Shown: positions 2,754 through 27,820, counted from the stretch's first letter. The stretch is 64,000 nt of DNA from Chloroflexota bacterium (GCA_034423235.1 DAOUIX010000141.1:2158-66157); one strand, 5' to 3'. Program-made: numbers and translations. Notes: generated from the sequence alone by a model not told the origin.

Positions 2754-2759
2754 GGTGGG

Positions 2760-5057: not shown

Positions 5058-5059
5058 GG

Positions 5060-8994: not shown

Positions 8995-9014
8995 ACGCCG
9001 GTCGAGCGGCCGGT

Positions 9015-9761: not shown

Positions 9762-9766
9762 TGTGC

Positions 9767-11641: not shown

Positions 11642-12838
11642 TCATGCTCCGTCACGTGACGTCTCTCGAGACGACCGGCCGGAGCGCCTGAGCTCGCCCA
11701 GCACATCGGGGCGCCGCTCGAGGAGAGCCAGGAGCGCCTGCTTGGTGGCGTCCCGGCGCTCCGGCGCTTCCGAGTCATTGGACGCGTCCAGGGCACGCAG
11801 CTCCGCGAGCAGATCGGCGGCTACCAGCTCGGGGTCCGCGGCCGGCCGACGGCGCCAGCCGCGCCGCCAAATCACCAGCGCCAGCCCCGCCACGACCGCC
11901 GGAACCGCGGCGAAGATCGCCCAGCGGTCGGCCGTCGTGGCGCGAAGCGTGCGTACGATGCCGGGCAGCGACGTGTCGGCAATCCGAACGCCAAACGACT
12001 GACGCGCTGGTACCCCGTTTTTCTGCCAGCGAAGGACCCTGGTGCCTCCGAAGGCGTCGTCGCCACGTGCCTCCAGCCCGGTGACCGTCGTGGTTAGCGG
12101 GCCGGTCTCAACCAGCAGAATCGCGACATCGGTATTCAGCGCCGGCACCCAATCGAAGGCGACGGTCCCGCCGTCGAGCGCCAATTGGTAGCCGTAAACC
12201 ATCGTCGTCACGCCTGGTTGGAGTCCGGCGAAGACCGCGAAGCCCGGTCCGCCGATGACGGCGTCACCGGGCCCGAAGCCCGCGACCGGCTGCAAGTTGA
12301 ACGCGCCATCGGGGACGCCGAACCGCAACGGCGGAGGCGAGCCCGGCTGCTGCACCGGCAGGTAGGCGCGGTCGCCGGGTACGTGCACCTCGGCGACTTC
12401 GACAACCGAGAGCGTGTCAGCCGTCTGGCGTCTGAGCAGGCGGGTCAGGCTCTGAAAGCTGATGCCAGGATCGGTCTCGGTCACGGCAAAGACTTCGATC
12501 TCAACCGCCGTGCGCTCACCCGCTGCTACCTGAAGCACATCGCTGCTGTAGCGGACGCCCTCAGCCTCGAACGAGATGAGATAGGCGTATTCGCCGCCGG
12601 CAGCCACGTCGGCGAACACGAAGGCGCCGTCGGCACCTACCGCAGTCTCGCTGGTGGGCAGGCGATCAGTCTGTCGAAACCCGTCAAGCCTGACCAAGAG
12701 GCCCGATGGCAATGCCGCGCCCGGCGTGGCCGGCCGCAGGCGCCCGACGATTTCACCACTTCCCTCGGCCTGCACGCCGGCTACGCCGACGATGGCAAGG
12801 GCGAATAGCACGGCGACTAGTCCAAGCGCTCGTTTCAT
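11642..12838 (-). CDS. Secreted, C-terminally membrane-anchored protein with carboxypeptidase-regulatory-like (CarbopepD_reg) domain; last gene of the ccm operon
   Basis: Signal peptide MKRALGLVAVLFALAIVGVAGVQA. G.IVGRL....G..LPSGLLVRLDG...T..DGAFVFADV resembles the CarbopepD_reg fold. C-terminal TM (AIFAAVPAVVAGLALVIW) followed by RRGWRRR. Its ATG overlaps the upstream gene's stop (ATGA). Confidence 0.5.
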   Translation of the reverse strand: MKRALGLVAVLFALAIVGVAGVQAEGSGEIVGRLRPATPGAALPSGLLVRLDGFRQTDRLPTSETAVGADGAFVFADVAAGGEYAYLISFEAEGVRYSSDVLQVAAGERTAVEIEVFAVTETDPGISFQSLTRLLRRQTADTLSVVEVAEVHVPGDRAYLPVQQPGSPPPLRFGVPDGAFNLQPVAGFGPGDAVIGGPGFAVFAGLQPGVTTMVYGYQLALDGGTVAFDWVPALNTDVAILLVETGPLTTTVTGLEARGDDAFGGTRVLRWQKNGVPARQSFGVRIADTSLPGIVRTLRATTADRWAIFAAVPAVVAGLALVIWRRGWRRRPAADPELVAADLLAELRALDASNDSEAPERRDATKQALLALLERRPDVLGELRRSGRSSRETSRDGA

Positions 12839-14073
12839 CGCCAGGTGGTTCCCGCGTCGCGGCTGCGGAATACCGAGCCGTCGGCCGCGACCGCGTAGAG
12901 CGTGCGTCCGGTAATCGCCAGCGCACGCACGTCCGCGCGCAGGGGAAGCTGCACCCACGACTGCATGCCGTCGACGGACTTGAATACGCCGGCGTCGGTG
13001 GCCACGAAGGCGGCGCCCTCAAATCGCTCGCCGGACGCCGAACTGTAGGAGTCGCCGGTTTCGGGCTCGTAGACCACGGCCCGGACGGTGATCGTGGGCA
13101 GGACGCCGTTGACGAAGCCGTTGGCACCGCGCCAGCCGCCGGTGCTCTCGGAGGCGAGCACGCCTTCAGCGCCGGTGGCCGCCAGTAGAAATGGGGTGCC
13201 GAAGTCGACGAGGGCCAGACCCGTAAGGCTGAGCGGAGCGTCGGCGGGGCCTGACTCCCAGCTGCGGCCCATGTCATTGCTCACGAAAATCGACCCGGAG
13301 TCATCGACGCCAGCCAGTCCCCGGGTTCGCAGTCCAATGGCTAGTCGCCGGAACGCCGGGAAGCCGGACTCGCGACCCCAGGTGGCGCCATGATCCCGAC
13401 TTGACCACACGCCGTCGCGGGCGAGCACGTAGAGCGCGTCGGAGCCTGCCGCGGCGCCCACGGCTTCTCCCGGACCCTCGGCGGGCGCCCAGGTCTGCCC
13501 GCCGTCACGGCTCAGCTGCGCGCCGGTGGCGTGGCTGACGAGCAGCAGATTGGCGTTGCCGGCCGCTACGGCCGTTCCCGAGATTGCCGCGACGCCGACG
13601 TTGCCGACAGGTTCCTGTTCGGCGGCCGCGGATCGCGCTCCGACGGTGATCACGACGACCAGCGCGCCCAGCAGCGTCACCAGCGCGACGCTCGGCGCAA
13701 CCCACGCCAGCGTCCGAGCACGCGAGGGTGTCCGAGCCGCCACCGGGACGGCGGTGGGCGCCTCGCCTCCAACCAGCGCCTCCACCGCGGCATCCAGGCG
13801 CCGGCGTCGCTGGTCGCGCTCGTGCAGTCGCCGCGCGGTATCTCGCCTAACGTCGCCGCTGACCCGCTCGAAATCCGCGTTGCTGATGGCTCCCCGATCG
13901 CGTTCGGCCTGCAAGTCGTCCAGCATTCGCAGCCCGCGCTCCACGGCCAGGTCGTCATCGGGTCCGATCAAGTCGCCGCGTTCGAGCGATCGACGCAGCA
14001 GCGGAGCGATGATCCAGGCCAGTCCGGCAAGGGCGATCAGGAGGACCGCCAGGCTCAGCAGGGGCGCCGTCAC
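12835..14073 (-). CDS. CcmI (CycH) N-terminal domain fused to a BNR/Ycf48-like beta-propeller
   Basis: GTG start overlaps the ccmH stop (GTGA). N-terminus VTAPLLSLAVLLIALAGLAWIIAPLLRR...DDDLAVERGLRMLDDL matches the CcmI membrane/helical module. C-terminal half carries at least four S-x-D-x-G-x-T/S-W BNR motifs (SRDGGQTW, SRDHGATW, SNDMGRSW, SRDAGTTW). Confidence 0.6.
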   Translation of the reverse strand: MTAPLLSLAVLLIALAGLAWIIAPLLRRSLERGDLIGPDDDLAVERGLRMLDDLQAERDRGAISNADFERVSGDVRRDTARRLHERDQRRRRLDAAVEALVGGEAPTAVPVAARTPSRARTLAWVAPSVALVTLLGALVVVITVGARSAAAEQEPVGNVGVAAISGTAVAAGNANLLLVSHATGAQLSRDGGQTWAPAEGPGEAVGAAAGSDALYVLARDGVWSSRDHGATWGRESGFPAFRRLAIGLRTRGLAGVDDSGSIFVSNDMGRSWESGPADAPLSLTGLALVDFGTPFLLAATGAEGVLASESTGGWRGANGFVNGVLPTITVRAVVYEPETGDSYSSASGERFEGAAFVATDAGVFKSVDGMQSWVQLPLRADVRALAITGRTLYAVAADGSVFRSRDAGTTWR

Positions 14074-14555
14074 GCTGGTGGTGGCGAGTCGCGCCCGGCC
14101 TGGCGCAGGTCGTCCACCTGCCGCTCGTAGGCCTGTAGATCTTCGTCGTCGGCCGCGAGTACGGGCTGGCGTCCACGAGCGAGAACCCAGCCGAGCAGCA
14201 GGATGCCCAGGCTGAGGATGACGACCGGACCGATCCAAACGCCCAGGGCCAGACCCTCGCGAGGCGGCTCGCGCAAGACCGCCAAGCCGTAACGATCCGC
14301 AAAGAAGTCCATGATCTGCGATTCGGACTCGCCTGCCTGGAGCTTGATCAGGATGATTTCACGCATCTGGGCGGCGAGCTGGGCATTGGATTCGCGCACG
14401 GACTGCCCCTGGCAGACGGGACAGTCAAGCCGCTCGGCGATCGACCACAGGCGTTTGCGCGTGGCCAGATCCGGCTCGTCGTCCGCGTGGGCCGGCACGG
14501 CCAGGAGCGTGGCCGCCAGCAGGGCCATGAGCAGGCTCGCGCGGAACCGACTCAC
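14070..14555 (-). CDS. ccmH: Cytochrome c-type biogenesis protein CcmH (NrfF-like)
   Basis: LDCPVCQGQSVRESNA (the LRCPxCQ motif), signal peptide, C-terminal TM. GTG start overlaps the ccmF stop. Confidence 0.75.
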   Translation of the reverse strand: MSRFRASLLMALLAATLLAVPAHADDEPDLATRKRLWSIAERLDCPVCQGQSVRESNAQLAAQMREIILIKLQAGESESQIMDFFADRYGLAVLREPPREGLALGVWIGPVVILSLGILLLGWVLARGRQPVLAADDEDLQAYERQVDDLRQAGRDSPPPA

Positions 14556-16552
14556 GACGCGGCCGGCTGCGTGGCGGCACCCGAAATCGCCGCTGTTTCC
14601 CTCGGCTCGGCAGGCCAGGCGATCACGAGGATGCCGACGAAGTAGACGATTCCGCCGATCCAGAGCAGCACGACCAACGGGTTGATTAGCAGTCGAATGG
14701 TGGCCGAGGCACCGCTCTGGTCCCACGAGCTCAGCAGCACGTACACGTCGTCCAGGTGCGGCAGGGTGGTGCTGACCGCCACGTCGGCCGTGGGCTGATT
14801 CTCCCAGCCGGCGTGAATGCGACGGGCAGGGGCCAGGCGATCGATCACGGCGCCGTCGCGCCGAACGTCCACGGCGGCGACTACCGTGTTCAGGCCCGGC
14901 TGGACGCTGCTGCGGAGTCCCTGGAAGACGATGTCGTACGAGCCCAGGCTCACGGCCTCGCCGCGCTCCACGGTGGCGGCAGTCTCCTGGCTGAAGGCGG
15001 CGGAGGCAATGATTCCGAGGGCCAGGATGGCGATGCCCAGGTGCACGAGATAGCTGCCCAGCCGCCGCCGATTGCCCACCATGAGCGGGTACGGGCCCGT
15101 CGCCGTCTCACGCCGGCGCGCCAGGCCGGCGCGCAAGCTGCGGGCGTACTCGAGCGCGACACCCACCGCGACGGCCGCTGTGAGCCCGATGGCAATGATC
15201 GGCAGGCCGTCGCGCATGCCGAAAACCGCCAGCAGCACCGAAACAACGACCAGCGTGGCGATGGGCCAGCGCGTGGCGCGCCAGGCGGCTCGCAGGGACG
15301 TGCGGCGCCAGGCCAGCAGCGGCCAGATGGCCAGCAGCCCCAGCGTTGCGACCAGCAACGGCACGTTGACCTGGGTGTAGAAGGGCGGTCCCACCGCGAT
15401 GCGGGCGCCTTGCACGATTTCCGTGATCAGCGGGAATACCGTGCCCCAGAACGTCGCCGCGGCAATGGCCAGCATCAGCAGGTTGTTGATCAGAAAGCCC
15501 GCTTCTTTTGACGCGATGTCGGTGATCGGTTCGTCCGAACGGATGAGAGGCAGGCGGTAGATGAACAGCACGGCCGAGAGAATCAGGAGCGCCCCGACAA
15601 ACACGAAGAAAATCGGGCCAACATCGGACAAGGCGAAGTTGTGGACTGACGACAGGATGCCGCTGCGAACCACGAAGGTGCCAAATATCGCCAGCGCATA
15701 GGTCACCAGCACCAGCCCGATGGCCCAGGCCCGCAGTTGGCCGCGCCGCTCCTGGGCGAGCGCAGAGTGCAGGTAGGCCGTGGCCACCAGCCAGGGCAGG
15801 AGCGCCACGTTCTCCACGGGGTCCCACCCCCAGTAGCCGCCCCAGCCAAGCACGCGGTACGCCCACCAGGCGCCGAGCAGCAGTCCGGCGCTCTGAATGG
15901 CCCAGGCCAGGAGCATCCAGTTCCGCATTTCCCGCAGCCACGGCTGGGTGACGCGCCCAGCGGTGAGCAACCCGACCGCGAACGCGAAGGGGAGTCCGAA
16001 GCTCATGTAGCCGGATAGCAGCATGGGGGGATGGATCTGCATGCCGCTGTCCCACAGCAACGGATTGAGCCCGCGCCCCTCGGCCGGTGCGGCCACCAGG
16101 CGCGAAAACGGTGACGACGTGAAAACCAGGACACCCAGGAAGAAGAGTTGCAGACCGCTGAGCACGACGACTCCGTGCGGGCCGGCGACGCTGTCCGCGG
16201 TCAACATGCGGCGGGTGGCGACTGCCGCGAAGAGGCTCATGGACCAAGTCCAGAAGAGCAGCGAGCCTTCCTGACCGCCCCATAGGGCGGCGATGGTGAG
16301 GCCGGTCGGCATGGTTGAACTGGAGTGGTCGGCAACGAATTGAATCGAGAAATCGCGCGCCAGGAAGCCGGCCGCCAACCCAGCGACCACCACTGTCAGC
16401 AGGGCGGCCTGCACCGACGCGGCATTGGCGGCGCTGCGGCTTAGTTCAGGCGTACGGCGTAATGCTCCCGCGAGTCCAAGCAGCACCTGGAGCACAGCGA
16501 CGCCAAAGGCAACGCCGAGTCCCAGCCGGCCGGCATCGACGAGGTCAGGCAT
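14552..16552 (-). CDS. ccmF: Cytochrome c-type biogenesis heme lyase CcmF
   Basis: 666 aa, polytopic. WGGYWGWDPVEN WWD domain. Confidence 0.9.
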   Translation of the reverse strand: MPDLVDAGRLGLGVAFGVAVLQVLLGLAGALRRTPELSRSAANAASVQAALLTVVVAGLAAGFLARDFSIQFVADHSSSTMPTGLTIAALWGGQEGSLLFWTWSMSLFAAVATRRMLTADSVAGPHGVVVLSGLQLFFLGVLVFTSSPFSRLVAAPAEGRGLNPLLWDSGMQIHPPMLLSGYMSFGLPFAFAVGLLTAGRVTQPWLREMRNWMLLAWAIQSAGLLLGAWWAYRVLGWGGYWGWDPVENVALLPWLVATAYLHSALAQERRGQLRAWAIGLVLVTYALAIFGTFVVRSGILSSVHNFALSDVGPIFFVFVGALLILSAVLFIYRLPLIRSDEPITDIASKEAGFLINNLLMLAIAAATFWGTVFPLITEIVQGARIAVGPPFYTQVNVPLLVATLGLLAIWPLLAWRRTSLRAAWRATRWPIATLVVVSVLLAVFGMRDGLPIIAIGLTAAVAVGVALEYARSLRAGLARRRETATGPYPLMVGNRRRLGSYLVHLGIAILALGIIASAAFSQETAATVERGEAVSLGSYDIVFQGLRSSVQPGLNTVVAAVDVRRDGAVIDRLAPARRIHAGWENQPTADVAVSTTLPHLDDVYVLLSSWDQSGASATIRLLINPLVVLLWIGGIVYFVGILVIAWPAEPRETAAISGAATQPAAS

Positions 16553-16602
16553 GGCCGGTTCGCGCTAGCGGCGCGGTCCGAGTCGTCGCCGCCGAGTTCT
16601 TG

Positions 16603-16770
16603 TCAGTGGCTTGACGCTTCCCGCCCTGCGTGCGGCGCATCGAGCTGCCCACGCAGATCTTGTAACTCGTCGCGCACGCTGCGCACGCGGCCGGTGACGT
16701 AGACCAGGTAGCCGAAAATCCCAAGCCACACGGCACCGAAGCCGATGAAGAGATACAGCAGGTCGCTCAT
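16603..16770 (-). CDS. ccmD: Heme exporter protein CcmD (small ORF absent from the >=60 aa track)
   Basis: My own translation: MSDLLYLFIGFGAVWLGIFGYLVYVTGRVRSVRDELQDLRGQLDAPHAGREASSH (55 aa). One TM followed by a charged tail. Its ATG overlaps the ccmC stop (ATGA), and it sits between ccmC and ccmF as in canonical ccm operons. Confidence 0.6.
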   Translation of the reverse strand: MSDLLYLFIGFGAVWLGIFGYLVYVTGRVRSVRDELQDLRGQLDAPHAGREASSH

Positions 16771-17513
16771 GCGGATTCCTCGTTTCGCTCGTGAAGCCGC
16801 TCGCGCAGGCTTCCGAGTTCAGCAACAGCGAGTTCAAGCTGCATGCGCTGTCGCAGCAGCGCCACGTAGAAGACGGTAAAGGCGGCAACGGACACCAGCA
16901 GCGTGGTCAGCATTTCGCGCGGCATACCGCCGCCGGGACTGGTGACCGAGGGCGTGGGGTGCAAGCTGCGCCACCACTCCACCGAAAACCAGACAATCGG
17001 CACGCTGACCACGCCGACGATGCCGAGTACGGACGACATGCGCCGGCGGGCGTCCGGGTCGTCGATATATGAGCGCAGCGCCAGGTAACTCACGTAGATG
17101 AACCACATGATGAGGGTGGTCGTCAGGCGCGGATCCCACTGCCACCAGACGCCCCAGACACTGCGGCCCCAGACGGAGCCCGTGACCAGGGTCAGGGTCG
17201 TGAACAGGACGCCGATCTCCGCGGAGGCGTGCGCAAGGCGATCCCAGCGGGATCTCCCGCGAATGAGGTACATCACGCTGCCTACGGCTACCACGCCGAA
17301 CGCGGCGAACGCCAGCCAGGCGCTGGGCACGTGCACGAAGAGCAGGCGGTAGACCTCGGCCTGTACGCGCTCGGCCGGCGCAAAGATGAAGGCCATGAAG
17401 AGCGCCAGGCCCATGCTCAGCAGCAGCGCGGCATAGAGCGCCACCGTCCCGGGATGCCGGAGCGCGCCGAGCCACCCTGGTCGGGCCAACTCCGTCGTAC
17501 GAGCCTGACTCAT
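16767..17513 (-). CDS. ccmC: Heme exporter protein CcmC
   Basis: 248 aa. WGVWWQWDPRLTTTL WWD motif. GGGAGG RBS upstream. Confidence 0.9.
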   Translation of the reverse strand: MSQARTTELARPGWLGALRHPGTVALYAALLLSMGLALFMAFIFAPAERVQAEVYRLLFVHVPSAWLAFAAFGVVAVGSVMYLIRGRSRWDRLAHASAEIGVLFTTLTLVTGSVWGRSVWGVWWQWDPRLTTTLIMWFIYVSYLALRSYIDDPDARRRMSSVLGIVGVVSVPIVWFSVEWWRSLHPTPSVTSPGGGMPREMLTTLLVSVAAFTVFYVALLRQRMQLELAVAELGSLRERLHERNEESA

Positions 17514-17525
17514 TCCTGCCTCCCG

Positions 17526-18875: not shown

Positions 18876-18940
18876 GGCCGGCGGCGCTGCCTGTGAACTT
18901 CGCGAATCGCCGAACGCGGGAGCTTCGACTTTGTCTGCCC

Positions 18941-19387: not shown

Positions 19388-19403
19388 CGTGTCCGGGTCC
19401 AGC

Positions 19404-19877: not shown

Positions 19878-19891
19878 AGACGTGTTTCAAC

Positions 19892-21003: not shown

Positions 21004-22373
21004 TCCCGCATGGCGGCCGGGACGTTGGCGCGACCGACTCTAATGCGGTCGGCCAGAATCTGGCCTTCCTTGATATCCGCGGCCGGCATGATCGGCAGCA
21101 GCTTGGAGAACGTCAGGAACCCGAGAATCACCAGGGCAAAGGATGCGGCTACCAGGATGAATTCGGATAACGAGGGGGCGTAATCGCCGTACGTGAACGT
21201 CAGGCCGCTCTTCCGCTCCAGGGCCGGCACCACGACCATGTAGCGCTCCAGCCACATGCCCACGTTGACCAGGATGGTGGTTACGAACATCCAGAAGAAG
21301 TTTCGGCGAATGGCGCGGAACATCCACATCGGCACCGGGATGATGTAGGCGCAGATGATGAAAGTAATGGCGATGACGACCCAGGGCGGCTCGACCAGTC
21401 GTCGCTGCCAGGTGTCGACTTCGGCCGGTTCGGTGCCGTAGAGGCCGAAGAAGAAGTCCAGCAGGAAGAAGAACAGCCAGACTGTCGCCACCACGATCAG
21501 CAGGCGGGCCAGCGAGTCGATGTGATCGCGGGTGATGAACCGCTTCAGCCCGAACGCGTAGCGCATCACGATCATCACGGTGACGACTGCCGACACACCG
21601 GAGTGCACGGCCCCGATCACGAAGTACGGGGCGAAGATGGTGTTGTGCCAGCCGGGAACCGAGGTGACCGCGAAGTCCCAGGACACAATGGAGTGCACCG
21701 AGACGAAGATCGGCAGGATGATGGCCGAGAGCAACAGGCCGGCCACGGTCTGGATTCGCCACTGCCGCGTGGTGCCTCGGAAGCCCATCGCGAGCACGCC
21801 GTAGATCGCACGACTTACGGGATTCGGCGCCCGGTCGCGCGCCAGCGCCAGGTCGGGAAGTAGCGCCACGTAGACAAACAGAATGGTTGACGTCAGGTAG
21901 GTGAAGATCGCCGACGGGTCCCAGACGAGCGGCGACCGCGGGTTGGGCCAAGCGCCGCGGTTCCAGTCGTACGGGAACGTCCAGTACATCGTGCGCCAGG
22001 GTCGGCCGGAGTGGATCAGGGGGAACTGCACGGCCGTCAGCAGCGAGAAGATTGTTAGCACCTCGGCGGCGCGTGTGACGGGCCGTCGCCACTCCGCCTG
22101 GGTCAGCCGCAAGATGGCGGAAACCATGATTCCGGCGTGGCTGACGCCAATCCAGAACACGAAGTTCACGATCAGGAAGCCCCAATACACTGGATGCGAG
22201 TACCCCAGGAACTGGAGCCCGAACATCAGCATCAGGATCACGACCACGAACGCGGCGACCAGCAGGCCGTTCAGCGCTCCGCCGACGGCGAAGAACCAAG
22301 CCGGCCAGGCGAAGACGAAGTCGAGCAGCTCGCGGTTCGAGGTTTTAGTGTCGGCGACGACCGGTTCTTGCAT
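21000..22373 (-). CDS. actF: NrfD/PsrC-family polytopic quinol-interacting subunit (ActF-like)
   Basis: 457 aa, about 10 TM helices, NrfD-like. Second of two tandem NrfD paralogs in the ACIII operon. Confidence 0.8.
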   Translation of the reverse strand: MQEPVVADTKTSNRELLDFVFAWPAWFFAVGGALNGLLVAAFVVVILMLMFGLQFLGYSHPVYWGFLIVNFVFWIGVSHAGIMVSAILRLTQAEWRRPVTRAAEVLTIFSLLTAVQFPLIHSGRPWRTMYWTFPYDWNRGAWPNPRSPLVWDPSAIFTYLTSTILFVYVALLPDLALARDRAPNPVSRAIYGVLAMGFRGTTRQWRIQTVAGLLLSAIILPIFVSVHSIVSWDFAVTSVPGWHNTIFAPYFVIGAVHSGVSAVVTVMIVMRYAFGLKRFITRDHIDSLARLLIVVATVWLFFFLLDFFFGLYGTEPAEVDTWQRRLVEPPWVVIAITFIICAYIIPVPMWMFRAIRRNFFWMFVTTILVNVGMWLERYMVVVPALERKSGLTFTYGDYAPSLSEFILVAASFALVILGFLTFSKLLPIMPAADIKEGQILADRIRVGRANVPAAMRE

Positions 22374-23722
22374 CAGTCCGGCTTCCCGATCACGAGGACG
22401 TGCGTCTTCATGAAGGTCCGCTCTTTACGCAGCATCGATCCCTGGCGCATTTCCCAGCCGTTGAGCACGGGAATCCGCGAGGCCGCGTAGACGAACACGC
22501 CAAACATCAACCCGATGAATCCGATGATGAACAGAATGTCGAGGGCGTTTGGCCAGTACGGCGCCGGCAGCACTTCCATCGCGTGCCCGAACGGCGACGG
22601 ATTGGCCATGGGCGCGACGTAGAAGCGAATGCGGTCGAAGATCAGGCCCACCACGATCAGGACCGATACGCCCGCTATGAGCGACAGCGACTGTCGAACC
22701 CTGTTAAAGATGAGCAGCGCCAAGGGCACGACCAGCATCAGCACGGCGGCCACCACAAACGGCATTTTGTAGGTAATGGCCACGGTGACCTGCATGGCGG
22801 CCACCTCGCTGGGTAGCCGGGCATACCAGATCAGCAGGAAGTCGGACCAGAAGAAGTAGAACCACATCAGCGTGGCCGCCAGCAGAATCTTGCCGAGGGC
22901 GGACGCCTGTTCGTCACCAAGGAAGCGAGCGGCCTCGGGCGAAAAGCGGCGCATCAGCGCCGCGGTCAGCAGCGTTAGCGCTATTCCGGCCTGGATCCCG
23001 GTCACAGCGTTGTAGACCGGGAAGATCCCGGAACGCCAGCCCGGCAGCAGGCTCTGGCCCAGGTCGGTTGAGAGCAGCATGTGCACGAAGGCGTAGCCCA
23101 TCAGATAAAAGGCTCCGAGCGTCAGGTTGGCGGTCCGCAGGACCTTCCACTGCCGCGCCGAGCCCGTCCAGTTCAGGAAGAGCAGGCGCTGCCAGCGCCC
23201 CATCGCGCGTACGCGGCTGGGCGGACCGGCGAGGTCAGGCACGGCCGAGAACCAGAGCAAGGCCATCCCCGTCAGCAGCAGGATCGCCAGCGCCAACGCG
23301 TCGGTCAGGAACGGCGCGCCGGCCCTGAATTCAAACCACAGGGTGGAGCGACCTTCCAGCGGCGGCAGCGACGCCATGATCGGAATCAGCAAAACAAAGC
23401 TGAGCAGCGACGGCACCGCATACAGCGCGGCGATGCGTCGAAGCGGCAGCGCCCAATACCCCTTGGCCATTCGCGAGGCGTAGGCAATGAGCGGCGCCGC
23501 AGTGGCGGTGGACAGAATGAACATCAGAACCACGGTCGGATAGGCCCAGGCCGCGCGGTCGCCCCAGGCCGTAATCAACTTCACGACGTACATCACGATG
23601 CCCAGCGCGCCCAGCAATGCCAGTAGCGCGATTCCCGCATTGTTCAGCGAGATGCTCAGCGCCTGGGGCCGGTATGGGGGCCGCAGCGACAGCTTCAGGC
23701 CGGCGGCTTCCGGAGCGATCAT
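22373..23722 (-). CDS. actC: NrfD/PsrC-family polytopic quinol-interacting subunit (ActC-like)
   Basis: 449 aa, NrfD-like. Directly downstream of the ferredoxin-like ActB2. Confidence 0.8.
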   Translation of the reverse strand: MIAPEAAGLKLSLRPPYRPQALSISLNNAGIALLALLGALGIVMYVVKLITAWGDRAAWAYPTVVLMFILSTATAAPLIAYASRMAKGYWALPLRRIAALYAVPSLLSFVLLIPIMASLPPLEGRSTLWFEFRAGAPFLTDALALAILLLTGMALLWFSAVPDLAGPPSRVRAMGRWQRLLFLNWTGSARQWKVLRTANLTLGAFYLMGYAFVHMLLSTDLGQSLLPGWRSGIFPVYNAVTGIQAGIALTLLTAALMRRFSPEAARFLGDEQASALGKILLAATLMWFYFFWSDFLLIWYARLPSEVAAMQVTVAITYKMPFVVAAVLMLVVPLALLIFNRVRQSLSLIAGVSVLIVVGLIFDRIRFYVAPMANPSPFGHAMEVLPAPYWPNALDILFIIGFIGLMFGVFVYAASRIPVLNGWEMRQGSMLRKERTFMKTHVLVIGKPD

Positions 23723-24555
23723 GCGTGCGCCCCGGCGTGCGCGTGCTCGTCTTCGTGAATCTCCGCGTGCGGATCCACCTTCTTGAGGTAGATGATGCCG
23801 GGGTCGGTTCCGAAGTGTTCAAGCAGCGTGTAGCCGCGGTCGGCTTCGGCCTCGGCCAGGCGCGCGGGCGCGCTCTCGGGGTTGTTGATATCGCAGAAGA
23901 CGAGGGCGCTGGTCGGGCACGACTGTGCGCAGGCCGGCTGAACTTCGCCGGGGCGGAGGTCGCGTCCTTCGGTGCCCGCCGTCACGTGCGCGCGGTTGAT
24001 CCGCTGCACGCAGAAGGTGCATTTTTCGATGATGCCCTTCGTGCGCACCGTCACTTCCGGGTTGAGCTGGTTGTTCAGCGGCTCCGGCCACTCCGGATTC
24101 CAGAAGTTGAAGTAGCGCACCGAGTACGGGCAGCCGTTGGCGCAGAACCGGGTGCCGATGCAGCGGTTGTAGACCTGGACGTTCAAGCCCTCGTTGTTGT
24201 GGTACGTGGCCCAGACCGGACAGACCGTCTCGCACGGCGCGTTGCCGCAGTGTTGGCACAGCACCGGGATAAAGCGGGCCTTCGCGTTCGGGAACTCGCC
24301 TTCCCAGTAGCGTTCGATCCGGATCCAGGTCTTGGCCCGGCGCTCCAGCACGCGCTGTTCTTCGTTGAGGGCGATGTTGTTTTCGGCCTGGCAAGCCACC
24401 ACGCAGGCCTGGCAGCCGGTGCAGCGATCCAGGTCTACCACCATGCCCCAGCGCACGCCCTCGGGATGAGGGACTTCGGCATCCGTGGGAATCGTTCGTC
24501 CCATCTCGGAGACGGCGCTGGCGCGGGCGGCGGCCTCGTTGGCTGAGCTACTCAT
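23719..24555 (-). CDS. actB2: ACIII 4Fe-4S ferredoxin-like subunit (ActB2; PsrB/DmsB-like)
   Basis: Multiple Cys clusters: CTGCQACVVACQAEN, CQHCGNAPCETVCP, CIGTRFCANGCP, CTFCVQR, CAQSCP. Its ATG overlaps the ActB1 stop. Confidence 0.85.
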   Translation of the reverse strand: MSSSANEAAARASAVSEMGRTIPTDAEVPHPEGVRWGMVVDLDRCTGCQACVVACQAENNIALNEEQRVLERRAKTWIRIERYWEGEFPNAKARFIPVLCQHCGNAPCETVCPVWATYHNNEGLNVQVYNRCIGTRFCANGCPYSVRYFNFWNPEWPEPLNNQLNPEVTVRTKGIIEKCTFCVQRINRAHVTAGTEGRDLRPGEVQPACAQSCPTSALVFCDINNPESAPARLAEAEADRGYTLLEHFGTDPGIIYLKKVDPHAEIHEDEHAHAGAHA

Positions 24556-26798
24556 TTGTGGTGGTCACCATTGCCATTCGTGACTTGCACGATTACTTCC
24601 TCGACGTCGTTGCGCGCGTTCGGCAAGACCTCAATGGTCGGGAGCTGTCGGTAGTCGCCCGTCGGCCGCACGCGAGCGCGCGTGGCGGCCCAAGCAAGCG
24701 CGCCGGACCCGGCGACGGTCAGCGGCGCCAGGCTGGCCAGGACATTGGAACCCCGATCCTCGCGCCAGCGGCCGCCGAACGTGTGCCCCTGACCGATCGG
24801 CACGCCCAGCACGCCGGGCGCGGCGGCCGGCGAAATGTACACGCCGGCTTCGAATTCGCCGTGAGCCGTCTCGATTCGCACGACGTCGCCGCGGGAAACG
24901 TCCAGCGCCGCCGCCGTCGAAGGGTTCATCTCGACCCACGTCGTCCAGGTAGCCGTGGAGATCGGATCGGGTGTGGCCTGCAACCAGGGGTTGGCCGTCT
25001 CGTCGCCGCCGCCCAGCGCCACGCCCTCGAAGGGAATGAGGTGTAGCGGGTATTCGATCCCGTTGTCGCTGAACGCCGGCTCGGCCAGCAGGTTGATGTG
25101 CCAGTTCGGAGTCGATCTGAACTCGGGCGTCCAGTCGTCATTCCAACCGCCGCCGTTCTTCAGCAGCTCCACCCATCGCTCCTCGAAATCGCCGCCCCTG
25201 AAGACTTCGGAGGCGCTGGCCCGCACCGCATCGCGCATGGTGTCCCAGGGCGGCGCCAGGTTCGGCCGCAGGTCGTGCCACAGGGTCAGCAGGATGTCGC
25301 CGAAGCTCCGTCCCGAGATTGACGGCGTAACCACCGGCTGTTGCAATCCCACCACGTGCTGTCGCGGCGCGGGATCGGGCACATAGTCGCCCCATTCCTC
25401 GAACGGGTGGGTGGACGGCAGCACCAGGTCAGCGTGACCCAGCGTCTCGCTCATGATCGTGCCAATGCCGACGACGAACGGAATCTTGCCGAGCGCATCC
25501 GAAAAGCGCGTCGCCACGGGCATGCCGTAGACCGGATCGGCTTCAAAGACGATCGCCACGTCCGGGGGCTCGCCCTCGAGCCAGGTATTGCCACGGCCTG
25601 CCAGGTCGGCAAATGACGTCGGTTCGGTCGGTGGCGTCACCGCGCTGCGCAAATCGGGATTCGGGAGCAGTCCACCCGGCTGTCCCACGCTGCCCACCAT
25701 GTGGTTCAGCAGCATGGTCGCCAAGCCGTTGTCCAGCCCGTTGGTACTGGCCAGGGCCGGTCCGCCGGCAATGGCGAACCCGGGCTGATGGCTGGCGAAC
25801 TCGCGGGCAATCTCCTGGATACGCTCAACCGGCACGCCCGTGCGTTGGGAAACGCGGTCAGGCGCGAAGGCATTCAGGGCATCGAGACCGCCGATTTCAC
25901 TCACGACATTGAACCAGTTGTCCGGCGGCGCCAGCCCCTCGGCGGCGATGACCTGCGCGATTGACAGCGCCAGCGCGCCCTCCTGGCCCGGATGCACGTA
26001 GACCCACGAGTCGGCGTTCGCGCCGGTGAGCGACATGCGCGGCTCAACCTGAATCAGGCGCCCGCGCTCGCCGTGGCCTTGGCGAAACTCGCCGTAGCCG
26101 ACGCCGTATTGCGTCGGGGACAGCCAGGACGACAGGAAGTCAGCGCCGAAGGACAGAATGGAATGTGCGTTGGCAATGTCCAGGAACGGCAGCCGCCTCG
26201 CGCCGAGCCCGTCCTGAACAGATTTCCGCCAGACCGTTGATTCCAGAGTTTCGTAGACGACGTGCTCCCCGCCGAAGGCGGTTGCGAAGTCACGGGCAAT
26301 GCGGGCCCTGGTTCCGCTGATCGGCCCTGTAATCACAACGACGCTGCGAGCCTCGGACATCTTTTCGGTCAGCAGGTCAAGTCCGGCGGGCCACTCCAGA
26401 TCCTCAAATTCGTTCGCGCCTCGCAGGCCGCGCCGACGCTTCGGAACCGTGAGGCGGTCCGGGTGGTACAGCGATTGCACGCCCGCCTGGCTGCGCACGT
26501 TCAGCTTGCCCTGGTTGACCGGAAAGGCGGGGTTGCCTTCGACCTTTTTTGCTCGCCCGTCGATCGTGCGCACGACCACGCCGTTTCCGCAGGCGGAGTG
26601 TGCGCACGACGTTGCAAACCACAGTTCCTGGCCCGGCAGCGACAGTTCCGGCTGGAGCACGAAGCTCTGTACCTGGGACTCGCGCTCCGGCGCCGCGCAG
26701 GCCACCACAGTGGCGCCGCCGACCAGTGCGGCCGACCCCGCCAGGAAGCGTCGTCGTCCAATGCCGCTCATGCGGTCCGATCGACTCACTTGTGACAT
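24552..26798 (-). CDS. actB1: ACIII molybdopterin-oxidoreductase-like subunit (ActB1) with Tat signal
   Basis: Twin-arginine motif GRRRFLAGSAALVGGATVVA and complex-iron-sulfur-molybdoenzyme fold. ActB is split into B1 and B2 ORFs here. Confidence 0.85.
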   Translation of the reverse strand: MSQVSRSDRMSGIGRRRFLAGSAALVGGATVVACAAPERESQVQSFVLQPELSLPGQELWFATSCAHSACGNGVVVRTIDGRAKKVEGNPAFPVNQGKLNVRSQAGVQSLYHPDRLTVPKRRRGLRGANEFEDLEWPAGLDLLTEKMSEARSVVVITGPISGTRARIARDFATAFGGEHVVYETLESTVWRKSVQDGLGARRLPFLDIANAHSILSFGADFLSSWLSPTQYGVGYGEFRQGHGERGRLIQVEPRMSLTGANADSWVYVHPGQEGALALSIAQVIAAEGLAPPDNWFNVVSEIGGLDALNAFAPDRVSQRTGVPVERIQEIAREFASHQPGFAIAGGPALASTNGLDNGLATMLLNHMVGSVGQPGGLLPNPDLRSAVTPPTEPTSFADLAGRGNTWLEGEPPDVAIVFEADPVYGMPVATRFSDALGKIPFVVGIGTIMSETLGHADLVLPSTHPFEEWGDYVPDPAPRQHVVGLQQPVVTPSISGRSFGDILLTLWHDLRPNLAPPWDTMRDAVRASASEVFRGGDFEERWVELLKNGGGWNDDWTPEFRSTPNWHINLLAEPAFSDNGIEYPLHLIPFEGVALGGGDETANPWLQATPDPISTATWTTWVEMNPSTAAALDVSRGDVVRIETAHGEFEAGVYISPAAAPGVLGVPIGQGHTFGGRWREDRGSNVLASLAPLTVAGSGALAWAATRARVRPTGDYRQLPTIEVLPNARNDVEEVIVQVTNGNGDHHK

Positions 26799-27346
26799 GT
26801 CGCGCAGTCCAACGAGGCGGAGTTCTCGCGGTGGCAACCCTGACAATCTCCCATGGCGAGGGAGCGTACCTGCTTGACTTCCTTCATCGAGGCCACGTCG
26901 CCGTGGCAGGTCTCGCACGCGACCCCCGCCTGGATGTGCGGCGCGTGGACGAAGCGCACGTGATCAGGCACGCGATGCACGCGCGCCCAGTTCACCGGCG
27001 TCTGTGTGTCCCAGTGCGCTTGCAGCAATTGAATCTGTGGGCTGTCGGTCTTCACGACCGAGTGGCAGAACATGCACTGCTCGACCGAGGGCACCGTGGC
27101 GGCGGCCTGCGTGCCCACACCGCGGTGACAAAACTCGCAAGGAATGGCCGCATCGCCGGCGTGTACCGAGTGGTCGAAGGCGATCGGCTGTTGCGGCGCG
27201 GGCGTTGCCGTCCCACCTGAAGCCATGAGAAACAGCAGAATGGCCAATACTCCCGCGCCCCCCAGCAGCAACGGCGCCGTGGCGCCTGCAAGGATCAAGG
27301 TCTGTTTGAGCGTGACGCGCGGCAGGAGGGCCGTCAGGTACTGCAT
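26786..27346 (-). CDS. actA: Pentaheme cytochrome c (ActA)
   Basis: Five CxxCH motifs (CEFCH, CMFCH, CETCH, CQGCH, CATCH) after an N-terminal TM anchor. Confidence 0.85.
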   Translation of the reverse strand: MQYLTALLPRVTLKQTLILAGATAPLLLGGAGVLAILLFLMASGGTATPAPQQPIAFDHSVHAGDAAIPCEFCHRGVGTQAAATVPSVEQCMFCHSVVKTDSPQIQLLQAHWDTQTPVNWARVHRVPDHVRFVHAPHIQAGVACETCHGDVASMKEVKQVRSLAMGDCQGCHRENSASLDCATCHK

Positions 27347-27350
27347 ACCG

Positions 27351-27674
27351 CTAGATCGCCAGCCGCGGGTAGATGTCCGGCAGGATGTTCAGCGCCAGCA
27401 GCGTGGCCTTGATCACCAGTACAACGACGGCGACGCATCCCATGGCCACGATGAGATAGAGCGGGGCGCGCATCCGTCGGGCGACGGCCGCGGGCAGATC
27501 GCCGGTGTCCATCAGTGACGGAATCATGGCGTGCGCCAGCATGTAGGTCAGACCGGTTACGACCAGCGCGGCGGTAAAGAACCAGAGGTGGGCGACCAGT
27601 TCCGAGAGCTTGACCCAGTCGGCGGCCGTGAGCTCGCTTAGTTGCACCCGTGCGTCTCCATCAACACCCGGCAC
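27351..27674 (-). CDS. Small 2-TM membrane protein leading the ACIII operon (possible accessory subunit)
   Basis: 107 aa with two hydrophobic helices. Its stop is 5 nt before the actA start. No recognizable motif. Confidence 0.35.
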   Translation of the reverse strand: MPGVDGDARVQLSELTAADWVKLSELVAHLWFFTAALVVTGLTYMLAHAMIPSLMDTGDLPAAVARRMRAPLYLIVAMGCVAVVVLVIKATLLALNILPDIYPRLAI

Positions 27675-27804: not shown

Positions 27805-27820
27805 CGTGAAATGTTTCACA
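27805..27820. promoter_or_regulatory. CRP/FNR-family-like palindrome cGTGA-N6-TCACa in the divergent region upstream of the ACIII operon
   Basis: cgtgaaatgtttcaca is a 5-6-5 inverted repeat with one mismatch to TGTGA-N6-TCACA. It sits in a locally AT-rich patch of a roughly 320-nt divergent intergenic region. Confidence 0.35.

What the first reader, a model, noticed from the sequence alone, without database searches (positions are those of the whole stretch)
11642..27674. 16-kb respiratory supra-operon: Alternative Complex III directly followed by a complete System I cytochrome c maturation set
About 18 minus-strand genes run with only 0-20 nt gaps or 4-nt overlaps. The order is a small 2-TM protein, ActA (5 hemes), split ActB1/ActB2, two NrfD-like subunits, ActD, monoheme ActE, a CopD/HemJ-like membrane protein, CcmE, CcmAB, CcmC, CcmD, CcmF, CcmH, a CcmI::BNR fusion and a secreted CarbopepD_reg-like protein. 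ACIII needs six covalently attached hemes, so physical coupling to its own heme-attachment machinery is logical but striking. The subunit order (ActC-ActF-ActD-ActE) and the split ActB differ from the characterised Rhodothermus and Chloroflexus operons.
Basis: partly seen in the sequence, partly recalled or inferred. Interest (0 to 1): 0.5.

Follow-up and report, generated by a model that had tools for sequence, protein, structure and literature searches.

The report
Alternative Complex III operon joined to cytochrome-c maturation genes
An uncultured Chloroflexota bacterium carries, in one tightly packed same-strand string, a rearranged Alternative Complex III, most of the System I machinery that attaches haem to c-type cytochromes, and a fumarate-reductase-type complex II; every part is a known kind, and only the arrangement, kept in about 32 related species, appears undescribed.

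Summary
The gene string is real and mostly named correctly. On the minus strand, 27674 to 11642 holds 17 ORFs. They are a conserved 2-TM protein, ActA (5 CXXCH), split ActB1/ActB2, a divergent NrfD-like protein, ActC, ActD, ActE (1 CXXCH), a CopD-like 4-TM protein, CcmE, fused CcmAB, CcmC, CcmD, CcmF, CcmH, a CcmI-N::beta-propeller protein, and a membrane-anchored beta-sandwich protein.

- The ActC orthologue is the second NrfD-like gene, not the first.
- Three spacers are 50-65 nt.
- CcmG is not in the cluster; two candidates lie about 8 kb away.
- The same-strand string continues into frdABCD-type complex II, giving 21 genes ending at 8270.

In 79 species-level Chloroflexota loci the eight-gene act core never changes order. 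The ccm block follows ActE in one monophyletic clade (32 loci). In the sister clade ActE is followed by sdhA, so ccm looks inserted. One SAR202 genome separately has ActE-CcmH-CcmF.

A CRP/FNR-type palindrome (27805-27820) is conserved upstream of the act genes, and no such box or terminator-like hairpin lies at an internal junction. Co-transcription remains untested.

Verdict: a new variant of known systems, of moderate interest.

The parts
27805..27820 (-). Palindrome TGTGAAACATTTCACG (CRP/FNR-type TGTGA-N6-TCAC box). Candidate operator of the act promoter, about 150 nt upstream of the first gene.
   Evidence: Only copy in the 64-kb window. It is the best conserved block across clades in the upstream spacer alignment. 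It is present upstream of the act genes in 26 of 73 loci. These include the sister clade, where the upstream neighbour is co-directional. Function is inferred, not tested.
27351..27674 (-). Small 2-TM protein, 98-107 aa (JGI start at 27647). First gene of the act core; a possible extra ACIII subunit.
   Evidence: No Pfam, NCBIfam or PDB sequence hit. Detected in this position in most loci that reach it, absent from four of the most distant ones (L060, L062, L064, L080); identity 25-92%. Two hydrophobic segments.
26786..27346 (-). ActA, a membrane-anchored pentahaem cytochrome c.
   Evidence: 5 CXXCH motifs; 5 in all 73 orthologues. Best PDB hit 6f0k_A at 9e-34. Pfam Cytochrome_C7.
24552..26798 (-). 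ActB1, a Tat-exported molybdopterin-oxidoreductase-like subunit. Its FS0 cysteine motif is degenerate, so it is probably cofactor-less. Alternative start at 26771.
   Evidence: Pfam Molybdopterin and Molydop_binding. QrcB 1.3e-81, below cut-off. ACIII ActB chains at about 1e-30. RRRF motif present; only CX4C remains of CX2CX3CXnC.
23719..24555 (-). ActB2, an iron-sulfur subunit with 16 Cys arranged as four cluster motifs.
   Evidence: Matches 6f0k_B residues 797-1035 at 7.3e-66, against ArrB at 1e-29. Fer4 families. Cys positions.
22373..23722 (-). Second NrfD-like membrane subunit (449 aa, about 10 TM). An ActC paralogue that takes ActF's place but is encoded before ActC.
   Evidence: No Pfam or NCBIfam hit. 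PDB: ActC 1.8e-16, ActF 2.4e-9 to 0.017. Family profile: ActC 4.5e-37, ActF 4e-18 to 1e-10. Homologues at or above 33% identity occur only in Chloroflexota.
21000..22373 (-). ActC, the quinol-interacting NrfD-family subunit.
   Evidence: 6f0k_C 6.4e-84, 6lod_C 5.5e-83. PF03916 3.9e-23.
20443..20994 (-). ActD.
   Evidence: PF11821 1.7e-24. 6f0k_D 4.7e-6.
19892..20446 (-). ActE, a monohaem cytochrome c lipoprotein.
   Evidence: 1 CXXCH and a lipobox LVAC. Best PDB hit 6f0k_E at 8.7e-13.
19404..19877 (-). CopD-clan 4-TM protein (157 aa) with an invariant His16. First gene of the inserted ccm block; role unknown.
   Evidence: NCBIfam CopD 1.2e-5. Pfam CopD in 6 of 20 orthologues, best 1.6e-6, plus DUF2269 and Urate_ox_N. 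Found only in ccm-linked loci. Invariant residues. The AF2 model is poor (pLDDT 60).
18941..19387 (-). CcmE haem chaperone. The haem-binding His is kept and the following Tyr is replaced by Phe (KHGPEF).
   Evidence: PF03100 4.7e-22. Motif present in 30 of 32 orthologues.
17526..18875 (-). CcmA-CcmB fusion: ABC ATPase plus permease in one ORF.
   Evidence: TIGR01189 at 145.6 bits, above the 131.6 cut-off. PF03379 CcmB covers residues 234-448.
16767..17513 (-). CcmC.
   Evidence: TIGR01191 at 180.9 bits (cut-off 186). PF01578 7e-38. WGVWWQWDP motif read.
16603..16770 (-). CcmD (55 aa).
   Evidence: TIGR04391 CcmD_alt_fam at 38.4 bits, above the 24 cut-off.
14552..16552 (-). CcmF haem lyase.
   Evidence: PF16327 7.9e-52 and PF01578 6.3e-34. 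TIGR00353 5e-119.
14070..14528 (-). CcmH, with the motif LDCPVCQGQS.
   Evidence: PF03918 9e-30. Motif conserved in 27 of 32 orthologues.
12835..14073 (-). CcmI-like N-terminal module (TM, cytoplasmic helix, TM) fused to a periplasmic BNR/Ycf48-like beta-propeller in place of TPR repeats.
   Evidence: TIGR03142 matched by 13 of 18 orthologues, best 2.6e-5. Propeller models (F510_1955, Ycf48) matched by 18 and 10 of 18. BNR hit in Pfam. Alignment.
11642..12838 (-). Type-I membrane protein: signal peptide, two beta-sandwich domains, a TM helix and a cytoplasmic helical tail. It travels with CcmF/H/I; candidate accessory factor of unknown function.
   Evidence: No Pfam hit. AF2 pLDDT 83. Best PDB folds are ribophorin I (E 1.5e-9, TM 0.30) and the M1 aminopeptidase N-domain. 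A homologue sits next to CcmH-CcmF in SAR202 locus L063 (E 1.7e-5). Present in both ccm-linked sub-clades.
8270..11587 (-). Complex II of the FrdABCD type: flavoprotein 9767-11587, Fe-S subunit 9015-9761, FrdC 8623-8994, FrdD 8270-8626. Same strand, 54 nt after the previous gene.
   Evidence: Pfam FAD_binding_2 1e-108, Fer2_3, Fumarate_red_C 3e-22, Fumarate_red_D 1.5e-23. In the sister clade sdhA follows ActE directly.
35514..36885 (.). Two divergently oriented exported TlpA/ResA/CcmG-like thioredoxins: 35514-36104 on the minus strand (WCPPC) and 36268-36885 on the plus strand (CPPC). They are candidates for the missing thiol-reduction branch and lie outside the cluster.
   Evidence: Pfam AhpC-TSA, Redoxin and Thioredoxin, 3e-26 and 2e-15. 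Motifs. The link to Ccm is inferred only.

Best explanation
This is the main aerobic electron-transport locus of an uncultured Chloroflexota bacterium. Several close relatives come from bins whose names suggest sponge metagenomes.

The act genes encode a lineage-specific version of Alternative Complex III, a menaquinol:cytochrome c (or oxidase) oxidoreductase. By analogy with the solved complexes, quinol is oxidised at ActC. Electrons then pass through the Fe-S clusters of ActB2 to the five haems of ActA and the single haem of lipoprotein ActE. ActB1 is a cofactor-less scaffold. A second NrfD-like subunit, an ActC paralogue encoded before ActC, takes the place of ActF. A conserved 2-TM protein is probably an extra subunit.

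Directly downstream lies the System I pathway. CcmAB-C-D loads haem onto CcmE, and CcmF/H with a CcmI-like protein ligates it to CXXCH. Three lineage-specific membrane proteins accompany it. This system makes the six covalent haems of ActA and ActE, and presumably every other cytochrome c of the cell. Next comes an FrdABCD-type complex II, which feeds the same quinone pool.

The ccm block was inserted between act and sdh in the ancestor of one clade and has been kept since. The likely benefit is co-expression from the act promoter, which carries a conserved CRP/FNR-type box.

Shown: gene identities, order, conservation and clade distribution.
Inferred: enzyme activity and direction, co-transcription, regulation by the box, and the roles of the unassigned proteins.
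For: Every act product has an ACIII chain as best or joint-best solved relative:
- ActA 9e-34.
- ActB1 about 1e-30, tied with ArrA.
- ActB2 7e-66.
- ActC 6e-84.
- ActD 4.7e-6 plus PF11821.
- ActE 8.7e-13.

Haem sites are 5+1, conserved in 73 and 71 orthologues. The FS0 motif of ActB1 is lost, which argues against a catalytic molybdoenzyme.

The Ccm assignments come, with the functional motifs present.

The act core order is identical in all 79 species loci. The ccm block sits directly after ActE in 32 loci that form one clade in a tree of ActC+ActB2+NrfD2. In the sister clade ActE is followed by sdhA.

In the window's own sub-clade the spacers are constant: 14, 16, 65, 12, 50, 23 and -4 nt.

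No terminator-like hairpin falls in an intergenic junction, and the total of 12 is no more than the 10.7 expected from shuffles.

The only CRP/FNR-type box in 64 kb lies upstream of the first gene and is conserved across clades.

A partial act-ccmHF linkage in a distant SAR202 genome shows the association is recurrent.
Against: There are no transcript data, so operon boundaries are unknown.

Three spacers of 50-65 nt could hold promoters. So could spacers of 97-262 nt (ActE to the next gene) and 106-421 nt (CcmD to CcmF) in the other ccm-linked sub-clade.

The promoter scan only knows sigma-70 consensus, so its zero hits say little for a 67% GC Chloroflexota genome.

The A, B1 and B2 subunits score best in NCBIfam against the Qrc models, all below cut-off. 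No ActB or ActA model appeared among the NCBIfam hits for comparison.

No terminal oxidase or soluble acceptor is in the window.

CcmG is not in the cluster.

Whether this is the only cytochrome c maturation system of the genome could not be checked.
Confidence: 0.7

Rival explanations
1. This is neighbourhood without a shared transcript. The act, ccm and frd units are three independent transcription units that happen to lie head-to-tail. The linkage reflects one historical insertion that has not yet been broken up, not selection for co-expression.
For: Spacers of 50-65 nt lie before ccmAB, ccmF and sdhA in the window. In sub-clade B the ActE/next-gene spacer is 44-262 nt in nearly all loci and the CcmD/CcmF spacer 56-421 nt, some with hairpin-rich insertions. 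Sister clades do without the linkage.
Against: The order is retained in 32 species whose orthologues have diverged to 41-60% identity. Many junctions overlap by 4 nt. No terminator-like hairpin sits at any junction. No conserved promoter-like block is visible in the aligned ActE/next-gene spacers. The single conserved regulatory palindrome lies upstream of the first gene.
Confidence: 0.25
2. The ccm genes form a dedicated maturation system for ACIII only, analogous to NrfEFG for NrfA. A separate general system (a second ccm set or System II) would sit elsewhere in the genome.
For: There is precedent in nrfABCDEFG, where a cytochrome/Fe-S/NrfD complex is encoded with CcmF/H homologues (established knowledge). 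CcmF here scores best against the NrfE subfamily model, though far below cut-off (416 bits against 927). In SAR202 locus L063 only CcmH-CcmF-CcmI-like genes follow ActE.
Against: All six haem sites are ordinary CXXCH, so no special lyase is needed. The block includes the general haem-delivery part CcmABCDE, not just a lyase. No second system is visible in the window, but whole genomes could not be searched.
Confidence: 0.1
3. The complex is not a quinol-oxidising ACIII. It would instead be a Qrc-like quinone reductase or another periplasm-facing CISM-type enzyme that takes electrons from a periplasmic donor.
For: The best NCBIfam matches of the A, B1 and B2 subunits are QrcA (3e-21), QrcB (1e-81) and QrcC (1e-71). 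The molybdopterin-like and Fe-S subunits are separate genes, as in Qrc.
Against: All Qrc scores are well below the family cut-offs (75 against 180, 275 against 440, 241 against 400). Qrc as described (QrcABCD; established knowledge) has no ActD, ActE or second NrfD-like subunit, and all three are present here. ActC and ActB2 match ACIII chains at 6e-84 and 7e-66. The genomic company is an Frd/Sdh complex II rather than sulfate-respiration genes. Direction of electron flow cannot be read from sequence.
Confidence: 0.07

Closest known systems
Alternative Complex III (ActABCDEF[G/H]) of Rhodothermus marinus, Flavobacterium johnsoniae and Roseiflexus castenholzii (PDB 6f0k, 6btm, 6lod)
   Same: A pentahaem ActA, a molybdopterin-like plus Fe-S ActB, NrfD-type ActC, ActD, a monohaem lipoprotein ActE and a second NrfD-like membrane subunit. 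All are best or joint-best PDB matches.
   Different: - ActB is encoded as two genes.
- The second NrfD-like subunit is closer to ActC than to ActF and is encoded before ActC instead of after ActE.
- An extra conserved 2-TM gene leads the cluster.
- The neighbours are ccm and frd genes. The canonical loci sampled here (L086, L087) carry SCO1 and caa3 oxidase genes instead.
ACIII-like clusters with split actB1/actB2 in iron-oxidising Beta- and Zetaproteobacteria and MBNT15 (PMC4643136, PMC9386147)
   Same: Separate ActB1 and ActB2 genes.
   Different: Those clusters keep the order actA-B1-B2-C-D-E-F, and their ActB1 keeps the CX2CX3CX27C motif (PMC4643136). Here the motif is lost in 63 of 76 orthologues, the ActF position is empty, and ccm genes follow.
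Qrc menaquinone reductase (QrcABCD) of sulfate reducers
   Same: Separate cytochrome, molybdopterin-like, Fe-S and NrfD-like subunits. These are the best NCBIfam names for A, B1 and B2.
   Different: All scores are below cut-off. Qrc lacks ActD, ActE and a second NrfD-like subunit.
E. coli nrfABCDEFG (cytochrome c nitrite reductase operon with its own CcmF/H-like haem lyase)
   Same: A multihaem cytochrome, Fe-S and NrfD-type membrane complex is encoded in one string with CcmF/CcmH-family genes. This is the closest precedent for coupling a respiratory complex to haem-attachment genes, especially for SAR202 locus L063 (ActE-CcmH-CcmF-CcmI-like).
   Different: NrfEFG is an extra lyase for a CXXCK site and works alongside a general ccm operon. 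Here the sites are ordinary CXXCH and the block includes CcmABCDE, so it looks like the general system.
System I cytochrome c maturation (CcmABCDEFGHI) of Proteobacteria
   Same: CcmA, B, C, D, E, F and H are recognisable with their key motifs: WWD in CcmC and CcmF, His in CcmE, CXXC in CcmH.
   Different: - CcmA and CcmB are fused.
- The CcmE motif is HxxxF instead of HxxxY.
- The CcmI-like protein carries a beta-propeller instead of TPR repeats.
- CcmG is not linked.
- Two additional conserved membrane proteins are present: the CopD-like protein and the 398-aa beta-sandwich protein.

Membership tests
Alternative Complex III | Membrane-anchored pentahaem (or hexahaem) cytochrome c ActA | tested here: met
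   5 CXXCH motifs and one N-terminal TM segment. 6f0k_A 9e-34.
Alternative Complex III | ActB: a molybdopterin-oxidoreductase-like domain (B1) plus a four-cluster Fe-S domain (B2) | tested here: met
   Present as two adjacent genes overlapping by 4 nt. B1 hits Pfam Molybdopterin and Molydop_binding. B2 matches 6f0k_B residues 797-1035 at 7e-66. Absence of a Mo cofactor is not testable; loss of the FS0 Cys motif is consistent with it.
Alternative Complex III | NrfD-family quinol-interacting subunit ActC | tested here: met
   21000-22373 matches 6f0k_C at 6.4e-84. PF03916.
Alternative Complex III | ActD subunit (PF11821) | tested here: met
   86.8 bits against a 25.7 cut-off. 6f0k_D 4.7e-6.
Alternative Complex III | Monohaem cytochrome c ActE | tested here: met
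   One CXXCH and a lipobox. The best PDB hit is ActE of 6f0k at 8.7e-13.
Alternative Complex III | Second NrfD-like subunit ActF, encoded after ActE | tested here: inconclusive
   A second NrfD-like subunit exists (22373-23722). It is nearer to ActC than to ActF (profile 4.5e-37 against at best 4e-18) and lies before ActC. No other NrfD-like gene lies within 10 kb in any locus.
Alternative Complex III | Quinol:cytochrome c / HiPIP / oxidase oxidoreductase activity | not testable with these tools
   Needs biochemistry.
System I cytochrome c maturation | CcmABCD haem-export and release module | tested here: met
   - CcmA: TIGR01189 at 145.6 bits, above the 131.6 cut-off.
- CcmB: PF03379 at 79.8 bits.
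- CcmC: PF01578 at 130.8 bits; TIGR01191 at 180.9 bits, just under the 186 cut-off.
- CcmD: TIGR04391 at 38.4 bits, above the 24 cut-off.
System I cytochrome c maturation | CcmE with the covalent haem-binding His in HxxxY | tested here: inconclusive
   PF03100 at 78.7 bits. The His is present, but the motif is KHGPEF (Tyr replaced by Phe) in 30 of 32 orthologues.
System I cytochrome c maturation | CcmF/CcmH haem lyase | tested here: met
   CcmF_C at 176.9 bits and CcmH at 103.3 bits, with CPVC.
System I cytochrome c maturation | CcmI apocytochrome chaperone (membrane N-domain plus TPR domain) | tested here: inconclusive
   The N-domain model TIGR03142 scores below cut-off (16.5 bits against 29.3). 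It matches 13 of 18 orthologues, best 2.6e-5. A BNR/Ycf48-like propeller replaces the TPR domain.
System I cytochrome c maturation | CcmG (DsbE) thioredoxin, with CcdA/DsbD, encoded with the system | tested here: not met
   None lies between 8270 and 27674. Two TlpA/ResA-like thioredoxins sit 8-9 kb upstream. No DsbD/CcdA Pfam hit was found among the ORFs scanned.
Qrc menaquinone reductase | QrcA, QrcB, QrcC and QrcD equivalog scores above the NCBIfam cut-offs, with a four-subunit composition | tested here: not met
   Scores against cut-offs: 75.6/180, 274.8/440, 240.9/400 and 27.7/570 bits. ActD, ActE and a second NrfD-like subunit are also present.
Operon (single transcription unit) | One transcript spanning the act, ccm and frd genes | not testable with these tools
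   Only indirect evidence: overlaps and short spacers, no junction terminators, and one conserved upstream palindrome.

The most novel reading that the evidence does not exclude
The 21-gene string is one CRP/FNR-controlled respiratory transcription unit. In it, a rebuilt ACIII is made together with a Chloroflexota-specific version of System I. In the ACIII, an ActC paralogue replaces ActF and a new 2-TM subunit is added. The non-canonical System I parts would be working components, so haem attachment would be organised differently from the proteobacterial paradigm. Those parts are the His-bearing CopD-clan 4-TM protein, the CcmI anchor carrying a beta-propeller instead of TPR repeats, the 398-aa membrane protein with ribophorin-like beta-sandwich domains, HxxxF CcmE and the fused CcmAB.
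Probability: 0.25. Interest if true: 0.55.

Novelty: new variant of a known kind. Interest (0 to 1): 0.36.

Why it matters
Public records name these genes only generically ('polysulfide reductase NrfD', 'molybdopterin oxidoreductase', '4Fe-4S dicluster protein'). This analysis gives them a coherent assignment for a widespread group of marine and apparently sponge-associated Chloroflexota.

The rearranged ACIII offers a natural variant for asking what ActF does. It has two ActC-type subunits, no canonical ActF and an extra 2-TM subunit.

The conserved companions of CcmF/H are concrete candidates for unrecognised cytochrome c maturation factors in Chloroflexota. These are the CcmI-propeller fusion, the 398-aa beta-sandwich membrane protein and the CopD-like protein.

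The linkage itself is a tidy example of a cofactor-insertion pathway captured next to its main client. It is not a new principle, because nrfABCDEFG already shows it.

Tried and rejected
- An apparent ActE::CopD-like fusion in five loci (spacer '-474') was an artefact of my ORF-extension script. A stop codon separates the genes.
- The sigma-70 promoter scan found 0 sites. The terminator scan found 12 against 10.7 expected, none intergenic within the string. The one at 27839-27827 overlaps the conserved promoter block.
- Rfam (gathering threshold) and tRNA scans of the window found nothing.
- A PDB sequence search with the small 2-TM protein gave no meaningful hit, so it cannot be equated with ActG or ActH.
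- The AF2 model of the CopD-like protein has pLDDT 60, too poor for a fold search, so none was run.
- The fold search for the 398-aa protein gave only low-TM beta-sandwich matches (ribophorin I, M1 aminopeptidase N-domain). No function follows from them.
- Five literature searches for ACIII together with ccm genes, SAR202, Dehalococcoidia or sponge Chloroflexi found no description of this linkage or of this gene order. The library holds open-access papers only, so this is weak evidence of novelty.
- The aligned ActE/next-gene spacers of sub-clade B show no conserved promoter-like block.
Whole-genome cytochrome c and ccm/ccs inventories were also not done.

Full report
**What is there**

The window has 64-69% GC and many spurious ORFs. 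Third-position GC and family searches single out one chain of minus-strand genes between 27674 and 11642. JGI gene calls on an essentially identical metagenome contig (99.9% over 16.2 kb) give the same chain. In transcription order the genes are:

- a 98-107-aa 2-TM protein with no family hit
- ActA, with five CXXCH motifs
- ActB1, molybdopterin-oxidoreductase-like, with a Tat motif
- ActB2, with four Fe-S cluster motifs
- a 449-aa polytopic protein with no Pfam hit
- a 457-aa NrfD-family protein
- ActD (PF11821)
- a monohaem cytochrome c lipoprotein
- a 157-aa 4-TM protein
- CcmE
- a CcmA-CcmB fusion
- CcmC
- CcmD
- CcmF
- CcmH
- a 412-aa protein with two TM segments and BNR repeats
- a 398-aa protein without family hits

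Spacers run from a 13-nt overlap to 23 nt, except for 65 nt (ccmE/ccmAB) and 50 nt (ccmD/ccmF).

The string does not stop at 11642. After 54 nt come sdhA, sdhB and FrdC/FrdD-type anchors down to 8270. That makes 21 same-strand genes over 19.4 kb. Upstream, an aldehyde dehydrogenase gene is divergently oriented.

**Is it ACIII?**

Each act product was compared with all solved structures.

| Product | Best solved relative | E-value |
|---|---|---|
| ActA | ACIII chain A | 9e-34 |
| ActB2 | C-terminal domain of ActB | 7e-66 |
| 457-aa NrfD protein | ActC | 6e-84 |
| ActD | ACIII chain D | 4.7e-6 |
| monohaem cytochrome | ActE | 8.7e-13 |
| ActB1 | ACIII ActB, on a par with ArrA | about 1e-30 |

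NCBIfam names A, B1 and B2 after the related Qrc complex, but far below the cut-offs. Qrc as described (QrcABCD; established knowledge) has no ActD, ActE or second NrfD-like subunit. ActB1 keeps only CX4C of the FS0 cluster motif, as expected for a non-catalytic scaffold.

The 449-aa protein is a second NrfD-like subunit. Alone, it hits ActC at 1.8e-16 and ActF at 2.4e-9 to 0.017. As a 16-sequence family profile it hits ActC at 4.5e-37 and ActF at 4e-18 to 1e-10.

The canonical ActC-ActD-ActE run is intact. What differs is that the second NrfD-like subunit is an ActC-like paralogue encoded before ActC, and nothing follows ActE in the ActF position. A split ActB is already known from iron oxidisers and MBNT15 (PMC4643136, PMC9386147).

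**Is it System I, and is it complete?**

CcmA, B, C, D, E, F and H are all recognisable. The motifs are in place: WWD in CcmC and CcmF, CPVC in CcmH, and the haem-binding His in CcmE. CcmE reads KHGPEF rather than HxxxY in 30 of 32 orthologues.

The 412-aa protein has the CcmI architecture at its N-terminus: TM, cytoplasmic helix, TM. The CcmI N-domain model is matched below cut-off by 13 of 18 orthologues, best 2.6e-5. The periplasmic part is a BNR/Ycf48-like propeller, not TPR repeats.

No CcmG or CcdA lies in the string. Two exported TlpA/ResA-like thioredoxins (WCPPC, CPPC) lie at 35514-36885. 'Complete' is therefore too strong.

**The three unassigned genes of the block**

- The 157-aa protein belongs to the CopD clan. 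Six of 20 orthologues hit CopD, best 1.6e-6, and others hit DUF2269 or Urate_ox_N. It has an invariant His in TM1. It occurs only where the ccm block is present. Its AF2 model is too weak to use.
- The 398-aa protein models well (pLDDT 83). It has a signal peptide, two beta-sandwich domains, one TM helix and a cytoplasmic helical tail. Its nearest solved folds are ribophorin I and the N-domain of M1 aminopeptidases, at low TM-score. It is membrane-anchored, not secreted, and Pfam gives no CarbopepD_reg hit at E<=0.01.
- A distant homologue of the 398-aa protein (E 1.7e-5) sits beside CcmH-CcmF and a CcmI-N-like ORF in a SAR202 genome. This suggests it belongs functionally with the lyase module.

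**Distribution**

Homologues of the 449-aa subunit at 33% identity or more exist only in Chloroflexota. A scan of one genome per GTDB species returned 79 loci with 10-kb flanks. All are Chloroflexota, including Dehalococcoidia and SAR202. Many bin names suggest sponge metagenomes, but I did not verify the hosts.

tblastn with the window's proteins shows the act core in the same order in every locus, as far as each contig reaches: ActA-B1-B2-NrfD-like-ActC-ActD-ActE, preceded by the 2-TM gene in all but four of the most distant loci.

The ccm block follows ActE in 32 loci. In a neighbour-joining tree of ActC+ActB2+NrfD-like these form one clade with two sub-clades. Its sister clade has sdhA about 210 nt after ActE. 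More distant clades have unrelated neighbours. The simplest reading is one insertion of the ccm block between act and sdh, then retention while orthologues diverged to 41-60% identity.

SAR202 locus L063 has ActE-CcmH-CcmF-CcmI-N-like-398-aa homologue. This is a separate, nrfEFG-like linkage.

Two canonical ACIII loci from Acidobacteriota, sampled for contrast, are actABCDEF(G)-SCO1-coxBACD with no ccm genes.

**Transcription**

Nothing here measures transcripts. The indirect evidence for a shared transcript is:

- 4-nt overlaps at eight junctions between the first gene and frdD
- invariant spacer lengths in the window's sub-clade
- no terminator-like hairpin in any junction, and no excess overall
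- a single conserved regulatory-looking element

That element is the palindrome TGTGAAACATTTCACG at 27805-27820, a CRP/FNR-type box. It is the only one in 64 kb, and with the adjacent TTGC motif it is the best conserved block across clades in the upstream spacer. It recurs as TGTGATATGTTTCACA upstream of the act genes in the sister clade, where the upstream neighbour is co-directional. It therefore belongs to the act genes and not to the aldehyde dehydrogenase gene. No such box occurs at the internal junctions.

Against a shared transcript, sub-clade B has ActE/next-gene spacers of 97-262 nt in most loci and CcmD/CcmF spacers of 106-421 nt. Some carry hairpin-rich insertions. Internal promoters are therefore quite possible there and cannot be excluded here.

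**Mechanism proposed**

By analogy with the solved ACIII complexes (established knowledge), menaquinol is oxidised at ActC. Electrons pass through the ActB2 clusters and the ActA haems to ActE, and on to an oxidase or soluble acceptor that is not in the window. The two NrfD-like subunits may contribute proton pathways.

The ccm genes supply the six covalent haems, and probably those of every other cytochrome c in the cell, because the full CcmABCDE delivery module is present and all sites are plain CXXCH.

Placing ccm behind act, and in front of complex II, would tie cofactor insertion and quinone reduction to the same signal. Activity, direction and co-regulation are all inferred.

**Novelty and score**

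All the building blocks are known families. Split ActB is known, and coupling a respiratory complex to haem-lyase genes has the nrf operon as precedent.

Five full-text searches found no description of the following:
- the Chloroflexota-wide act gene order, with an ActC-like paralogue before ActC and a leading 2-TM gene
- the clade-wide act-ccm-frd string
- the non-canonical System I companions

Public records name these genes only generically.

I rate this a new variant of a known kind. It is useful for annotation and as a source of testable candidates, but it would not surprise a specialist in principle.

Noticed in passing
window 27805-27820 (minus strand TGTGAAACATTTCACG): A CRP/FNR-type palindrome, the only one in the 64-kb window. 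It is conserved about 150-240 nt upstream of the act genes in 26 of 73 related loci across three clades. It is preceded by a conserved TTGC(A/G)G motif.
   Followed up: partly
window 8270-11587: An FrdABCD-type complex II (flavoprotein, Fe-S subunit, FrdC- and FrdD-like anchors) continues the same strand 54 nt after the last gene of the finding. In the sister clade sdhA follows ActE directly.
   Followed up: yes
window 35514-36104 (-) and 36268-36885 (+); 36898-37731 (+): Two divergently oriented exported thioredoxin-like proteins (WCPPC, CPPC) could be the unlinked CcmG/ResA function. They are followed by a 277-aa ORF with no Pfam hit (not examined for TM segments).
   Followed up: partly
window 18941-19387 and orthologues in L008-L039, L052: The CcmE haem-binding motif is KHGPEF (His kept, the usual Tyr replaced by Phe) in 30 of 32 orthologues and KHGPDF in the other two.
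   Followed up: partly
window 17526-18875: CcmA (ABC ATPase) and CcmB (permease) are fused in one 449-aa ORF. Each ccm-linked locus gives a single tblastn hit to it; I did not check that the ORF is continuous there.
   Followed up: no
L002 (JGI 3300009935 contig), positions after 12626; corresponds to window 20916: This contig matches the window (99.98% over 12,626 bases) from 33541 down to 20916, just past the start of actD. It then continues into unrelated genes (a P-type ATPase fragment and a glyoxalase). This is an assembly chimera or a strain-level rearrangement.
   Followed up: partly
L060, L080 and 11 other basal loci versus the window's ActB1 (24552-26798): The CX2CX3CXnC FS0 cluster motif of ActB1 is kept in 13 basal Chloroflexota loci and lost in 63. 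This shows stepwise degeneration of the molybdoenzyme-like subunit within one lineage.
   Followed up: partly
L033 about 13843-14072 and L037 about 13843-14106: The ActE/next-gene spacer carries insertions with inverted repeats (ggattcccgc...gcgggaat). They may be REP- or MITE-like elements.
   Followed up: no
P0063, P0064 (hits): Two metagenomic proteins of 650-674 aa combine the ActD (PF11821) and NrfD (PF03916) domains in one chain. This would be an ActD-ActC fusion in other lineages.
   Followed up: no
window 53-6434: Two xanthine-dehydrogenase/CO-dehydrogenase-family large subunits (53-2329, 2760-5240) and a CoxM-like FAD subunit (5547-6434) lie on the minus strand, downstream of a mandelate-racemase-family gene (6587-7729).
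   Followed up: no
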